64,000 bases of DNA from Octopus vulgaris (lineage: Eukaryota). Location of the stretch: NCBI GenBank assembly GCA_951406725.2, contig OX597821.1, forward strand, positions 89,590,001-89,654,000, written 5' to 3'. Made by a program: the position numbers and the translations under genes. Positions 28,403 to 61,277 of this stretch are shown here, one piece after another. Numbering within the stretch: position 1 is the first letter of the stretch; each line of letters begins with the position of its first letter. The notes below the pieces were generated by a model. It ran no database searches. It was not told the origin of the DNA and was given only the letters and a program-made list of their open reading frames with translations.

Positions 28403-28596
28403 TATACATATGTATATATATTTGTGTTTGTACACATTGAAAAAATACACCATTACCTCTCATAACCTATATATGTGTGTGTATATATATATATATATAT
28501 TAATGATGTTGTTGAGACCCAAAGGTGCCAGGTAATGCTGAATAAGCACTATAGATAGACCATAGTTAAGTTCCAGATTTGGTGATTATGCGAATA

Positions 28597-29171
28597 AGGG
28601 GTTCAACGTTGGTCATAAAAAAAAAATGGATCTACAAATACAATCTCCCTACTCATCTCACATCTATTTTCTCTCCTCCACCTCGCTCTCTATTTTGTAT
28701 CTAATCTAAATTAACTATTACTTAACCATTCTCTCATACCGTCTCCGATGAAGGGATATAACAAATATCCTGGAAACAGCTGTAAGACCTTCTATCTATA
28801 AATATTCTAAAATTTCCACAGCCTTGGTTTTTGTAGTGTCACGGATGAAGAGGACAACAGAAGGAGAAAGAAATACAACAGGTCTTACCTCGGCAAAGAT
28901 CAGGTCTCTCACCAAACTCGGTGCGTCAAGTCGCTTCCTCATCTCAGCTCGAACTGCCCACTTCGTTGATCGCCACACGTGCGTGCTGCTTGACTGCTTC
29001 CGCTTCCCACCACACATGCGCCCTCCAATCTTCCACCGGACCCTGCAAGCCCTACTTCCGCCCTCCCTTATCTGTCGTCCTCTCCACCGACACCACAGTT
29101 TTTTATTTTATTACAAAGAAAAAAAAAACTTTTATATGCATACGCTGACATATGACCAACGTTGAACCTCT
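28597..29171. mobile_element. TA-flanked element with inverted termini carrying a hammerhead motif
   Basis: ATAAGGGGTTCAACGTTGGTCATA (28594-28617) versus TATGACCAACGTTGAACCTCTTAT (29151-29174), one mismatch. Confidence 0.75.
28741..28788 (+). ncRNA. Minimal type-I hammerhead ribozyme motif (U4C core variant)
   Basis: gtct CCGATGA a gggatat-aacaa-atatcct g GAAA cagctg TA agac; palindromic stem III, GUA cleavage triplet. Confidence 0.75.
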
Positions 29172-29955
29172 TATCTCTTATTATAAAAGGCAGATTTTAT
29201 CTGCCTCCCTTTGGGAGTTATACAAATCTACAATATAGGATTTCTTCAATTACAATTTACCTAGCATTTTTGAGAGTACAATGCATCGCGTCATGCCAGG
29301 TCCAGTTTTTAAAATTTAAACTCCAATTAAGCAAAATTTACAGAAAACTCACATTCTGGTGTGTGTGTCAAATGCTTTTCTTAGTCTGGTTTACACCACA
29401 CGCAAACGCACACACACAGTGTGCGACGAATAAAATGAAAGTAAATGTAATATTTGTTTCTGTCTATCACGCTGATAGATACATGAGTAAAATGTATGGG
29501 AAGCTAACAGATAACAGTGAGTGAAAATGTTCTTGGAAGAGAGTAAATTAGCGACAGAGTGATTTGAGCAAGACTAAACTGAAAGTATGAAACAGTGTTT
29601 ATGTATAAACAGACGACACTTATATAAACCCTTTCGTTACCAAACCGCCCGAATTTAACTATTCATATTTAAATGAGAATATCAGAGTAAATCTCTTTAG
29701 TACATTTGCGAAAACACGTATTATACTTCGTAAACACTTCAAATACAGTTTTGTACAAAAATCGAAGTGTAATTTTAATTCCGTGAATTATGGGAGATTT
29801 TTTTCCGAAATTTGTTCCTATTGTGTTTTCAAAATTTGTAATTCTGACAAAAAATGGATACGAATTTCATTATATCAAGCAGCGAGTCAGAATTCGAAGG
29901 ATTTTCTACTGAAGACCTTCATAAATCTAACTCTATGACTGAAAAAAAATAAGCA

Positions 29956-30350
29956 TCTTTATATAAGAGTGAAGTTGTGTGTCTGTCCCCTTCGATTTAG
30001 ATTCGTAACTACTCCCACATTTTGCCGTGCAGTTTAACCAAAAGTGGGTATCTTATAGTCGTGATTCATATCGAGCCCTTCTGGGTATTAGCACGCGTCT
30101 ACGATGAGTCTACGATTTAAAAAAAATTTACCATCATATTTTTCCATTTGAATGCATTTTTTTCGCTTTTATATAAGGGAAGTAACTCTCTAAAAATATC
30201 TACGATGTGTCAACGATTTTAAAAAAAATTTACCTTAATTTTTTTTCAATTTCTAATGCATTTTTTTGCTATTTTTTGGCTATAACTCTCTAAAAATGGT
30301 TATATAGTTATTTCCCTTACAACCCGAGCAACGCCGGGAGATACTGCTAG
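29956..30350 (+). mobile_element. Non-autonomous Helitron, subtype 2
   Basis: A|TCTTTATATAAG ... CCCGAGCAACGCCGGG hairpin ... CTAG|T. Confidence 0.85.
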
Positions 30351-30816
30351 TTCGTATATATAAATATAAATATATCATATACAAACACATGTACACACAC
30401 ACATAAATACATCTATATGTATATCCATATCTGTAATATATACAAATGACTTTTCAAAAGCTACCTTACTCAATAAACTCAGTTTCACTTGGATCTATTA
30501 TAATTCATGATTTTATTTGCCTGTAGCTGATTGTTTACAAGTTCTGTAGTTTGGAATGACACAGGACAGATATTTTTCCATGACTGTGTGGTAAGAAGGT
30601 TGTTTCTCAACCACATGGTTCCTGGTTCAGTCCCACTGCATGGCACCTTGAGCATGTGTCTTCTACTATAGCCTCGGGCCAACCAAAGCCTTGTGAGTGG
30701 ATTTGGTAGACAGAAACTGAAATGAGTTCAGTTCTATATTTAAAGGATGAGGAATTATGTACATTATTTACATTATTTACATTTGACGGATATTTGTCTT
30801 CATCTTGTTTGTTGTT

Positions 30817-30860
30817 AACACAACTTTTCCGCTGATATACCCTCCAGCCTTCATCAGGTC
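30817..30860 (-). ncRNA. Hammerhead motif, left arm (stem I truncated)
   Basis: gac CTGATGA aggctg-gagggtatat-cagcg GAAA agtt gtgtt. Confidence 0.65.
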
Positions 30861-30898
30861 AATAATCATAAATAAACCCAGGTTCGAAATTTCCCCAT

Positions 30899-30944
30899 GA
30901 CACCTGATGAAGGCTGGAGGGTATATCAGCTGAAACGTTCTGTT
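30899..30944 (+). ncRNA. Hammerhead motif, right arm
   Basis: gacac CTGATGA a ggctg-gagggtatat-cagct GAAA cgtt ctgtt; palindromic AACGTT. Confidence 0.75.
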
Positions 30945-31231
30945 AACAACAAACAAGATGAGGATAAATATCCATCAAATGTAAATAATGTAAATAAGGA
31001 ACGAAGTTCATCGTATATATGTATATATATGTATGTGTGTCTGTGATTGTTCCCCTACCATCGCTTGACAACTGATGGTGGTGTTTTTACGTCTCCATAA
31101 CTTAGCGGTTCAGCAAAAGGGACTGATAGAATAAGTACTAGGCTTACAAAGAATAAGTCCTGGGCTTGATATCATCAACTAAAGGTGGTGCTCCAGCATA
31201 TAACAGGGTAAATGAGAAAAAGTTAATGAAT

Positions 31232-39425: not shown

Positions 39426-39821
39426 CTAGCAGTATCACCCGGTGTTGCTCGGGTTTGTAAGGGAAATAACTATATAAGCATTTTTAGAGATGTAAAGTAT
39501 AACAGCCATCTAAATATGGCTAACCACAAGGGGGGGAGTGTTACTCTAGCTTTTTACGTTCTGAGATTTAATAATAAATTTTTAGAGAGTTACTTCCCTT
39601 ATATATGCCAAAAATGCATTAAAAATGGGAAAAATTAATGGTAATTTTTTTTTAAATCGTAGACTCACCGTAGATGCGTTCTAATACCCAGAAGGGCTCG
39701 ATATGAATCACGACTATAAGATACTCGGTTTTGGTTAAACTGCACCGCAAAATGTGGGAGTAGTTAGGAATCTAAATCATAGGAGACAGACAGCACACAA
39801 CCTCACTGTTATATATAAAGA
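39426..39821 (-). mobile_element. Non-autonomous Helitron, subtype 1
   Basis: TC start, hairpin, CTAG end; near-identical to 4546-4939. Confidence 0.85.
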
Positions 39822-40423
39822 TATTACTTCAGCATATAGCTGCATATAACATAGCATCATTTCCACACTGCCTATATAATGTTATCATCAACTATGCTAA
39901 ATAACATCCCTGTAACCATGCAAGATTGTTCTGGTGAGAGCCATTGAGACCCCTGGTAGATTGGAGAATGAACTAGCTGAACTCTTGTAAAAAGTAGAGG
40001 TTGGTAGTAGTGGAGAGAGAGTTTTTTGGTCAGCAAGTCGATGCTGTTCAATAACACTGTGGGATGTTGGACGGAAGGTCCTGTTAAGAAGCTAGGGGTC
40101 TGGTTTGGTCCAGATCTCCAGGTAGAGGAGAATTGGGATGAGGTAACAAGCAAGGGAACTCCCCAAAACCAGACCTGCTAGAAAGGGCGGAGGTGACACG
40201 GAAGTTTACTGCATCCATTATCACCTACAGCCTAACCGTTGTGCCTTGTCCCGATTCGTAGCTGTGCAAGCTGGAGCGACTCCTCTTTCACTTTTTGTGG
40301 ATGTGGATACCACTTGTAAGGCACTCTATCTGCTGTCAAAATTTATAAAAATGGGAAGACGGAATAGTAACAGAAAAATAGGCAAAAGGATAAATATCAT
40401 AAGAGGCAAAAAATGGGAACACA

Positions 40424-54144: not shown

Positions 54145-54542
54145 CTAGCAGTATCACCCGGCGTTGCTCGGGTTTGTAAGGGAAATAACTATATAAGCAT
54201 TTTTAGAGAGTTATAGTCAAAAAATAGCAAAAAAATGAATTAAAAATGGAAAAAAAATTATGGTAATTTTTTTTTTAAATCGTTGACTCATCGTAGACAT
54301 TTTTAGAGAGTTGCTTCCCTTATATAATAGCGAAAAAATGCATTAAAATGGAAAAAAATGATGGTAAATTATTTTTAAAATCGTAGACTCATCGTAGATG
54401 CATGCTAATACCCAGAAGGGCTCGATATGAATCACGACTATAAGATACCCGGTTTTGGTTACACTGCACCGCAAAATGTGGGAGTAGTTAGGAATCTAAA
54501 TCATAGGAGACAGACACACAACTTCACTTTTATATATAAAGA
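54145..54542 (-). mobile_element. Non-autonomous Helitron, subtype 2
   Basis: TC start, hairpin, CTAG end; matches 29956-30350. Confidence 0.85.
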
Positions 54543-56117
54543 TAACACTACTAATACATTCAAACACCATTACTACACTAGAATATATATTATACATATA
54601 ACTACCTTTTTGCCATAATAGTTCTTACACATTGAATTTGAAATTTATTCCAAAATAATTGTTAGATTTTTAAATAAAAGAAAAATAAAATTCCAATTTA
54701 ATGAAAATTAAATTGTTTATTTATTCAGTGTTTGGAACCATTAATTTTGTGAAGCATTTAAATAATTTAATTTACATTAAAGGTTAAATAAGAAGCATGT
54801 TCTTTTTTTTTCTTTTTTTCTCGCAATTCAAGTATTGTTAGTGTTACATTTAATGATATTTGGTAGCTGATTTTTCACTTGGAAGTTTTCCTTTATACAT
54901 ATTCCTAATTTGCTATAAATTATTTCCACTTGACAGCATGATGTACTTCATACATGTTTACAAAGTTAAGAAAAAACATGACTTAACATTATCATTAGTA
55001 TTTTTTTAATTGAGGGTATTTCTAACAGTTTCAATCAATTCGTTTCTATTTCACGTCAATGTTTGATGCCGTAAAGACTAAAGAGAGTTTAAAATTTTAA
55101 GGGACTGACAATTTAACTATAGATTCCATCATAATATATGCTGCAATTAAATTTAGACCTGCATTCATCACATGACATTTAACATGGCCTGCTGGCTTTT
55201 CAAATAGGCTATACTTTTCAATTTACAGTTGACATACCTTTTTAATCACCATTTCTATTTTTAAATTCTCACTTCTAATTACTTAACTTTCGCTACAGGG
55301 GTTCTTTTTGGCTGAATTTTTAAATAAATTTTGGCTGGTTTTATATATGCAAATGGCTATATTTCAGTTTTATGGTTCAATTATTGCTTTTACTAAATCT
55401 CAGCTTCGCACTGCTGTTATCATCATGAAGAAATCTTGTTGTAAATTGCAGGGTTTCTAGTTCATCAATTTCAATGTGATACTAGCCAGAAGGTGTTGTG
55501 CAATAAAATCATTTTATACTCATATGCACATGTGCATGTGGGCATATGCGCACCCACGCACACCTGCCCACACTCTCACCTGCCCACACTCTCACACACA
55601 TGCGTGCACACACACATACAAACATATGTATACACACATGTGCACACGCACATCTACATGCACACACACATACACACATGCATACACACTTGCACACACA
55701 CACACATGCACCCACATATACACACACATCCAAAAACACGTGCACATGCACACACATATACACACATGGACAGGCCATCAGAAGGTACATAATGGTTTGC
55801 TTTGGACTCAGCCTCATCCCACATGTGCACGCTTGTGTGTGTCAGTTTTACATAGAGAATAGGCAAACTAATTAATTCATCAAACAAAATACCTTGAAGT
55901 ACTTGTTATAGTTTCTTACACTCTGTGTTCAAATCCCATTCTCTCCTGTACTTCCAACCTCACTAAAATACCAATCAAATTACAAGAATAAATCCCTTTC
56001 TCTCCTCAGCTGTTATATCTCTCATGCACTACTGGATCAATTGTTTAAGGCACAGAAGCGTATCCGTGTTTGCTCATTACAATGGGAAAACCCAAAACAG
56101 GTGCAACAGCATATTGA

Positions 56118-59467: not shown

Positions 59468-61277
59468 ACTTTCTTTTATTAGCCACACAGGGCTGAATAC
59501 AGAGGGGACAAATACAAATGCAGAGCTTTTCTTTTCGAGGGTGGAAAAAAATAAAAAATGTAAGATTGCGATCAAAAGGGATCGAGAGGAGGAAAAAAAA
59601 AAGGAAAAAAAGGAAAATCGTGTATCACAGAAATAATGGTATAAACATTGATATAACAAGATTGGGTTCATCCGTGGGAAGAAAAGCCTACAGAAAAGAC
59701 TACGGGAACCCCAGTCAGGGAGGAAATAAACACATGAGGTCAAAAATGCTCTCTTTCTTTCTTTTTTACGATCTACAGGATCATGCTCAAAATGGTTTCG
59801 TTACTAGCACGCACCATCTTTGCAACATTCACCCATCTTTTTTTAATCTTTCGCGAGACAAAACTTCCCTCTCCATTCTCACCTTCCTTTTCAAGTGGTA
59901 CTTGAAAAAGTTGATGAGCGATTGGCCAGAGAGGTAAGTGTTTGTCTCTAATCCTTTCGCTCGAGTCCACCTGAAATTATCTATGACGTCCCCCTTGTTT
60001 GGGTCTTTCTTGATCAGTGCCACTGCTCCTCGCTTTACAAAAGCAGGAATACTCCCGTTCTGCTGCCAGTTGCAGTAGACAGCTGCCAAGACGCCTCCAA
60101 ACAAGTCTGGCATATGAAAATAAAATTCGTAGGGCAGACCATCCAAGCCTGGTGACTTGTCTCTCGCGCAGCCTACCATCGCATCCTGTACATCCGCAGC
60201 TGTGATAGGCTTTTCACAAGACTCCACCTCCCTTGCTGAGAGTCGTGGCAAGGCATGCAGGTAGGCACTAAAGTCCACTCTGCTTTCTGTCTCACCACTT
60301 GTCCCAAACAGTTGGGTGAAGTGTTGTTGAAAAACCCCACACATCCTTTTAGGCTCGAGCAATTCGCGCCCCTGTTCATCTATAAGAGACTTGATGGTGG
60401 CTCTGTTGCCTCGTTGCGTCTCCACCACTCGGGCCTCTTGGGCGGCTCCAACTCCTTCGTTCCTCAGAGCACGCATCCTAGCTCTGACAACGCATCCCTC
60501 GTGTTTGGCGTTGAGGTGTTGGTCGAGGGCCAATCTCGCCGCCAGTACGTTGGACGCGATGCCAGTTCTAAGTGCCTCTTCTAAAACCTTAACTAATTCT
60601 CCCTCTATTCTATTTCGGTCTAATGCTAGGGCTCTACTGTATCTGACTGATTTTGCTTTAATCGCTTTTTTTAGGGCATACCACCATCTGTTGTTGATGA
60701 TGGTACCCGTCAAAGCTCTCTTAACTAATGTGCTGATCCGGTCCCTGTAAACCTGTCATGCTGTAAAAGACGCGTTCAGTTTCCAGTAACCAGGACCCTG
60801 CCTATGTGTCTTATCTAAGTCAAGTGTACAAGTCACAAACTTGTGATCTGTGTAACTGACTATATGAAATTGTGGACAACCTACACTATTTTTATCTATT
60901 GTCCTACAGAATACTCTATCTAAGTATGATCTGGACGACCCGATGCGGTTACTCCATGTCCACATTGGCACATTCGGGTGGTCCAGTCGGTACCTGTCAG
61001 ACAGTTGGAAACGTCTGAGCAGGTCTTTGAGGCATTTGCATCCTCTTCTATTGCTATCTCTGCCCACGTAGTCTAGATGCGTGTCCAGGGTGGCATTCCA
61101 ATCCCCCACTAAAAGTAAAGGACGAGACGTTCCCATGAAAGACTCTAGACGTCGAAAGAAATCTGGTCGGCCTGTTAAGGACGGAGCATAAACTGCTATC
61201 AGTCGAAAAGCACACTCATTGCTGCCATCGACATCCAAAACGACCAGCCTACCCTCCGGGTCTAGGAAATTTGCTCT
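59468..61277 (-). mobile_element. Tx1/L1-clade LINE ORF2: APE plus linker, RT deleted, 3' UTR intact
   Basis: DPEGRLVV..AVYAP..VGDWN..WTW..SYLDR..TDH..GYWKLN; KSPGLDGLPYEFY; DNFR fused directly to the C-terminal region; one in-frame stop at 60756. Confidence 0.92.

What the first reader, a model, noticed from the sequence alone, without database searches (positions are those of the whole stretch)
28594..29174. TA-flanked inverted-terminus element carrying a near-intact hammerhead and a CpG-rich interior
Seen: 24-bp inverted termini including the TA, a well-paired hammerhead (28741-28788) and a GC- and CpG-rich segment (28880-29095) unlike the surroundings. Inferred: either a DNA-transposon MITE that captured a PLE ribozyme or a PLE derivative with very short inverted ends. 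If the unit is amplified as a whole, it would be an unusual ribozyme-carrying MITE.
Basis: partly seen in the sequence, partly recalled or inferred. Interest (0 to 1): 0.7.

Follow-up and report, generated by a model that had tools for sequence, protein, structure and literature searches.

The report
Three nested transposons mimicking a MITE
The apparent ribozyme-carrying mini-transposon is a one-off pile-up of three ordinary jumping genes (a Penelope-like end, a lone retrotransposon LTR and a Helitron); the leads worth keeping are a family-wide change in the predicted ribozyme's core and an LTR family that likely starts copying from the front end of a tRNA.

Summary
Not a MITE. The 24-bp inverted match, the hammerhead motif and the CpG-rich block are all present, but they come from three elements. 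(1) The host is the 3' end of a Hydra-clade Penelope-like element (PLE). Its forward piece carries the hammerhead; an inverted piece of its tail (28501-28617) sits head-to-head with it, a known PLE layout. (2) The CpG-rich block is a 266-bp solo LTR of a Gypsy-type retrotransposon with a perfect GTTTT duplication. (3) A young 1177-bp Helitron-like element cuts the right arm, which creates the false end. No other scored copy joins these modules. The CCGAUGA (U4C) core is the majority state (2061 exact genomic matches) and likely that of the source element; cleavage is untested. All 8 putative 5' LTRs are followed by the complement of nucleotides 1-10/12 of host tRNA-Phe, which fits none of the three primer types listed in a plant survey. 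This scan had already noted Hydra-PLE end pairs, and a variant core, on other DNA.

The parts
28447..28470 (+). Last 24 nt of the PLE tail, facing the TA tract (a separate tiny insertion or a local flip; unexplained)
   Evidence: 100% match to the natural end of copy L041
28469..28500 (.). TA/TG microsatellite, likely the PLE target
   Evidence: Sequence; family ends abut (TA)n
28501..28617 (-). Inverted, 5'-truncated piece of the PLE tail; contains the left 'TIR' arm (28594-28617)
   Evidence: 93% to L041 tail; 39 other copies stop matching at or before 28617
28618..28831 (+). Forward 5'-truncated PLE 3' UTR with the hammerhead; ends in the left target duplication GTTTT (28827-28831)
   Evidence: 21 matches at 89-92%; copies extend upstream into RT and GIY-YIG coding pieces
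28741..28788 (+). Type I minimal hammerhead motif with U4C core and palindromic helix III
28832..29097 (-). Solo LTR (TG...CA, 266 bp) of a Gypsy-type retrotransposon: the CpG-rich interior
   Evidence: Perfect 5-bp duplication; paired copies flank gag/protease/RT/integrase pieces in L031
29098..29173 (+). Right duplication GTTTT, then the PLE continues into its tail; contains the right 'TIR' arm
   Evidence: 84% to L041, colinear with 28618-28831
29174..30350 (+). Young non-coding Helitron-like element (5' TC, 3' hairpin and CTAG) inserted between A and T; creates the false right end
   Evidence: 39 other copies at 96-99%; A^T site in 11 of 11 other copies with both ends found
30351..30358 (+). 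PLE tail resumes for about 8 nt (7 of 8 match), then TA-rich repeat

Best explanation
The stretch is a one-off nest of three mobile elements: a truncated Hydra-clade Penelope-like element carrying a hammerhead motif, a Gypsy-type solo LTR inserted into it, and a Helitron-like element that cuts its right arm. Shown: the three modules, their boundaries, the 5-bp duplication, the A^T site, and the RT and GIY-YIG coding pieces upstream in longer copies. Inferred order: the PLE endonuclease likely nicked both strands of a TA tract, and copying of the element RNA from each nick left two truncated pieces head-to-head. The piece of tail present in both gives the inverted match. A Gypsy-type element then integrated at GTTTT and likely recombined down to one LTR. 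The Helitron came last (about 1-4% divergence between copies, against 8% or more for the others). The unit would not move as a whole. The hammerhead is predicted to cleave only as a dimer through its palindromic helix III, and weakly at best because of U4C.
For: Modules occur separately. PLE copies without the LTR show the empty site, and the 'TIR' sequence is internal to them. Copies are colinear with PLE coding pieces: relatives at E 4e-20 to 9e-15; tblastn covers RT, thumb, CxCX5C linker and GIY-YIG in L169 and L170. 19 adjacent head-to-head pairs were found in other loci, 16 of them one long end plus one short end. LTR: 8 of 29 full-length copies are solo with a 5-bp duplication (0-1 mismatch), and L031 has an LTR pair with a 5-bp duplication around gag-pol pieces. 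Helitron ends.
Against: The window's forward piece ends about 40 nt into the tail. Only 1 of 93 ends in loci not picked on the tail falls in that bin, so a later deletion or an unusual start has to be assumed. Pfam did not recognise the PLE pieces. DKT reads DKA in the one decayed copy inspected. No Helitron Rep/helicase partner was sought. Genome searches scored only 40 candidates each.
Confidence: 0.95

Rival explanations
1. A TA-targeting MITE captured a PLE ribozyme and was amplified as a 581-bp unit by a DNA transposase.
For: 24-bp arms with TA at both outer ends.
Against: No second copy among scored hits. The left arm continues 93 bp beyond the TA. The right end coincides to the base with a Helitron 5' end, and the arm sequence resumes after it.
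Confidence: 0.01
2. The PLE part is right, but the short right-hand copy of the tail arose later, by copying or conversion from the inverted arm, rather than at insertion.
For: Other head-to-head pairs are nearly always one long end plus one short end (16 of 19), whereas both window pieces hold tail sequence.
Against: The right piece is colinear with the family through the short end and into the tail, including bases absent from the left arm. The arms differ at 1 of 24 sites.
Confidence: 0.1
3. The LTR family primes from its own transcript (Tf1-like self-priming), and the match to tRNA-Phe is incidental. This rival concerns the side lead only.
For: A motif about 65-75 nt from the LTR end pairs with 9 of the 12 primer-site bases, with wobble pairs, in 4 of 10 junctions.
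Against: Predicted duplex energy is at best -11.7 against -18.7 kcal/mol for tRNA-Phe 1-12, and the self match drops to 5-8 bases in 5 of 10 junctions while the site is kept. A distant relative changes two bases in a way that still matches tRNA 5' ends.
Confidence: 0.2

Closest known systems
Hydra clade of C-terminal-endonuclease Penelope-like elements, including Hydra-1_Obim (Craig et al. 2021, PMC8557442; passages, section 11, supplement part 2 and supplement search hits seen)
   Same: RT then C-terminal GIY-YIG; CxCX5C linker; CxxC and CxH motifs; (TA)n targets; 3' hammerhead with long helix II and short palindromic helix III; inverted 5'-truncated copy and one-sided tail.
   Different: A different family from Hydra-1_Obim, whose listed hammerhead differs. 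Core is CCGAUGA, whereas all Hydra rows in supplement S2 begin ctga. Tail is about 140 nt against 30-40 bp. About 1 kb of 3' UTR makes the element over 3.5 kb against under 3 kb.
Minimal dimer-type hammerheads of metazoan PLEs (Cervera and De la Pena 2014, PMC4209133; parts 1-2 of 4 read)
   Same: Helix I 4 bp, helix II 7 bp, palindromic helix III, dispersed single and opposite-strand copies.
   Different: U4C core; the core variant described in the parts read is U3-A8. U4C is mentioned for a viroid, with low in vitro activity but retained infectivity (PMC3088659, passage citing Ambros and Flores 1998, which was not held).
Ty3/Gypsy-type LTR retrotransposons (lineage with DUF7047) and their solo LTRs
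   Same: TG...CA LTRs, 5-bp duplication, purine-rich tract before the 3' LTR in one subfamily, order gag-protease-RT-RNase H-integrase in relative P0005.
   Different: The primer site matches the 5' end of tRNA-Phe. The three primer types listed in PMC6317226 (passages) are the tRNA 3' end, a half tRNA cut in the anticodon stem, and a self primer.
Non-autonomous Helitrons (defining features recalled)
   Same: 5' TC, 3' hairpin plus CTAG, insertion between A and T, no duplication.
   Different: No coding partner was sought.
MITEs of the Tc1/mariner type (recalled)
   Same: Short inverted match with TA at the edges.
   Different: Not amplified as a unit; the TA is not a target duplication.

Membership tests
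MITE | Many copies sharing both termini and the interior | tested here: not met
   Only the window spans the unit or its junctions
MITE | TA target duplication outside the termini | tested here: not met
   TA is internal to the PLE tail; the last base of the right arm is the Helitron's first base
Hydra-clade PLE | RT followed by C-terminal GIY-YIG | tested here: met
   Broken but colinear pieces in L169 and L170 upstream of the hammerhead module
Hydra-clade PLE | CxCX5C linker; CxxC and CxH around the conserved E and N; no CCHH cysteine pair in the core | tested here: met
   Read directly in L169-L171 translations
Hydra-clade PLE | DKT motif | tested here: inconclusive
   DKA in the one decayed copy (L169); DKT in all 4 protein relatives
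Hydra-clade PLE | N-terminal RWK motif; placement in an RT tree | not tested
   Region not covered by the alignments; no tree built
Hydra-clade PLE | (TA)n target and inverted/tailed insertions | tested here: met
Hydra-clade PLE | Canonical hammerhead core CUGANGA | tested here: not met
   CCGATGA in 62 of 89 aligned copies and 2061 exact genomic matches
Hammerhead ribozyme | Three helices around the core, with an NUH cut site | tested here: met
   helix III is predicted to form between two molecules
Hammerhead ribozyme | Self-cleavage | not testable with these tools
   Needs an in vitro assay
Gypsy-type solo LTR | TG...CA ends with 4-6 bp duplication | tested here: met
   GTTTT in the window; 7 other solo copies
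Gypsy-type solo LTR | Paired copies flank gag-pol with integrase after RT | tested here: met
   L031. The copy is broken into several frames and has no match over the RNase H stretch of P0005
Gypsy-type solo LTR | Primer site complementary to a tRNA 3' end | tested here: not met
   Complementary to tRNA-Phe 1-10/12 instead. Only tRNA-Phe was compared directly
Helitron | 5' TC, 3' hairpin and CTRR, A^T target, no duplication | tested here: met
   11 of 11 other copies with both ends found; 7 of 20 loci missed the exact 5' motif
Helitron | Autonomous Rep/helicase partner | not tested
   Not sought

The most novel reading that the evidence does not exclude
The LTR in the middle belongs to a Gypsy lineage that primes reverse transcription with the first 10-12 nucleotides of a tRNA (tRNA-Phe here), released by a Tf1-like RNase H cut or supplied as a short 5' tRNA fragment. 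That would be a fourth kind of primer beside the tRNA 3' end, the anticodon-cut half tRNA and the self primer.
Probability: 0.35. Interest if true: 0.65.

Novelty: new member of a known kind. Interest (0 to 1): 0.3.

Why it matters
As proposed, it does not: there is no ribozyme-carrying MITE. Two by-products are testable. First, a PLE family reached at least 2061 copies with a U4C core. Either U4C is tolerated in a dimer, or cleavage is dispensable for PLE spread. The second would match in vitro data in which catalytic mutants did not impair insertion (PMC11167929, passages) and bears on whether hammerheads merely ride on PLEs (raised in PMC8557442). Diverged relatives with the canonical core in the same genome give a natural control. 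Second, a primer site matching a tRNA 5' end would point to a priming route not found in my searches, and to a link with short 5' tRNA fragments.

Tried and rejected
Rfam scans gave no hammerhead. Monomer folding was not significant. Pfam missed the PLE pieces and the P0001/P0002 relatives. A structured tail hairpin, suggested by earlier notes: single copies fold moderately (z -1.6 to -2.9), but 26 aligned tails of the 57 found give -2.39 kcal/mol with almost no covariation; inconclusive. No diagnostic site is clearly linked to CTG cores within the family (best p 0.006 before correction over about 200 columns). CACTA, Sola, Kolobok, Harbinger and Ginger readings of the termini were dropped once the 5-bp duplication and gag-pol were found. 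Four exact matches to the LTR-end/primer-site 16-mer in viral contigs: the two read (L208, L211) show no LTR context and are taken as chance. Three family motifs were absent from the supplement of PMC8557442 (line breaks could hide them). The bioRxiv retrozyme paper (10.64898/2026.07.22.740005, passages) had nothing on this case; its supplements were not seen. Literature searches found no report of U4C in a PLE or of a tRNA 5'-end primer site; the library lacks most subscription papers and Repbase.

Full report
Observation. The three features are in the sequence. The arms 28594-28617 and 29151-29174 match at 23 of 24 bases. A hammerhead-shaped motif lies at 28741-28788: helix I 4 bp, core CCGAUGA, helix II 7 bp, GAAA, palindromic helix III, GUA cut site. 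A descriptor written after seeing it finds it once in the window and never in 100 shuffles. The monomer's best predicted fold is a different one that pairs core bases (z -1.27); two copies pair through the palindrome. Rfam has no hit. The block 28880-29095 has CpG o/e 0.98 against 0.48 for the window.

The unit falls apart. A search of the 2.8-Gb genome with the whole stretch gave 49 matches from 40 scored of 4290 candidates. Only the window spans it; 21 matches cover only 28617-28835, 20 cover only 28832-29099, and 7 are short tail pieces. An 86-bp probe across the module junction is spanned only by the window (1 of 41). A probe across the left arm and its junction likewise (1 of 40).

Host element. 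Walking upstream led through about 1 kb of non-coding DNA into broken coding pieces. [quoted passage not shown] These are the diagnostic features of the Hydra clade (PMC8557442, section 11). DKT reads DKA in the one copy seen, RWK was not checked and no tree was built. The family has two 3' ends about 140 nt apart: 58 short and 27 long among 93 ends in loci not picked on the tail. Of 19 adjacent head-to-head pairs, 16 are one long plus one short; 11 of the 19 were picked on the tail, and among the other 8 the count is 7. Inverted truncated copies and a one-sided tail are described PLE traits, and the tail lies between two RT start sites in an anole element (PMC11167929). In the window the inverted piece is 28501-28617 and the forward piece starts at 28618. 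The forward piece ends unusually in mid-tail, which I cannot fully explain.

Interior. 28832-29097 begins TGT, ends ACA and is flanked by GTTTT on both sides. Among 29 distinct full-length copies, 8 are solo with a 5-bp duplication (0-1 mismatch), 8 are putative 5' LTRs and 13 are putative 3' LTRs (sorted by hand). L031 holds an LTR pair with a 5-bp duplication around gag (zinc knuckle), protease, RT and integrase pieces. Its closest relative has the Gypsy domain order. The LTR reads on the minus strand.

Right end. At 29174 a 1177-bp repeat begins with TC and ends in a hairpin and CTAG at 30350. It has 39 other scored copies at 96-99% and sits between A and T in 11 of 11 other copies with both ends found. 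After it, the PLE tail resumes for about 8 bases. The apparent right terminus is therefore the Helitron's insertion point.

The U4C core. Exact 18-mer counts are CCG 2061, CTG 1211 (minus) and CCA 287 (minus). With a family-specific 30-mer (414 matches) the first 100 listed are 64 CCG, 25 CTG and 11 CCA (counted by hand). Four close opposite-strand pairs in that list, likely single insertions, differ at this site (CCA/CTG twice, CCG/CCA, CCG/CTG), as CpG decay from CCG predicts. In 89 aligned copies (a few redundant) the core CpG decays like its neighbour (CG/TG/CA 67/12/6 against 61/13/11). Copies still attached to coding pieces carry CCG. So the source element likely had U4C. Against a pure-decay account, CTG exceeds CCA (25 to 11, p 0.03), and more so genome-wide. 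Diverged relatives with CTG exist, though I picked those loci for their CTG. All Hydra cores in the published table begin ctga. U4C lowers activity in a viroid (PMC3088659, passage). Cleavage here is untested.

Side lead. All 8 putative 5' LTRs, including a subfamily 67-73% identical to the window's LTR, are followed by the complement of positions 1-10/12 of the host tRNA-Phe. The first two bases and those beyond position 1 vary. A metagenome relative at 41% protein identity has, after its apparent LTR end, a site with two changed bases. Its complement starts 6 of 8 phage tRNA genes found with that motif extended by four typical tRNA letters (Thr and Leu, not the host's), which is weak support. 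Self-priming is not excluded. My searches found no description of such a primer.

Earlier notes. My reading was recorded before the look-up. The scan has noted Hydra-PLE end pairs several times, and once a family-wide core change in another genome. One note calls this genome an octopus; I did not check that.

Verdict. An ordinary nested insertion and a new member of known kinds, with two modest testable leads. Interest 0.3.

Noticed in passing
L031:1295-1306; also L005, L007, L008, L011, L179, L180, L182, L184, L204: Primer site directly after the 5' LTR is complementary to the first 10-12 nt of host tRNA-Phe, not to a tRNA 3' end.
   Followed up: partly
L206:100-115: A distant relative of the LTR element has a similar site with two changed bases that still matches tRNA 5' ends.
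   Followed up: partly
L032:3731-5035: LTR pair only about 770 bp apart with a 5-bp duplication: a short non-autonomous form of the Gypsy family.
   Followed up: no
G000:C18:30147730-30157146: Tandem array of about 46 matches to the tRNA-Phe 5' motif at a 200-bp period.
   Followed up: no
window 30782-30979: About 200-bp near-perfect fold-back with CTGATGA-like cores on opposite strands; likely another head-to-head PLE end pair of a different family.
   Followed up: no
window 28447-28470: The last 24 nt of the PLE tail point into the same TA tract from the other side, overlapping the inverted piece by about 9 nt.
   Followed up: partly
L113:2096-2383: A piece of the family's RT thumb region is joined directly to its 3' UTR, an internally deleted copy.
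   Followed up: partly
window about 59830-60755, minus strand: 308-residue open frame that is not low-complexity; possibly a retrotransposon coding piece.
   Followed up: no
window 29955-30350; related pieces near 4779-4940, 39661-39822, 54385-54543: The Helitron's 3' part is shared with other repeats in the window, suggesting several related Helitron families.
   Followed up: no
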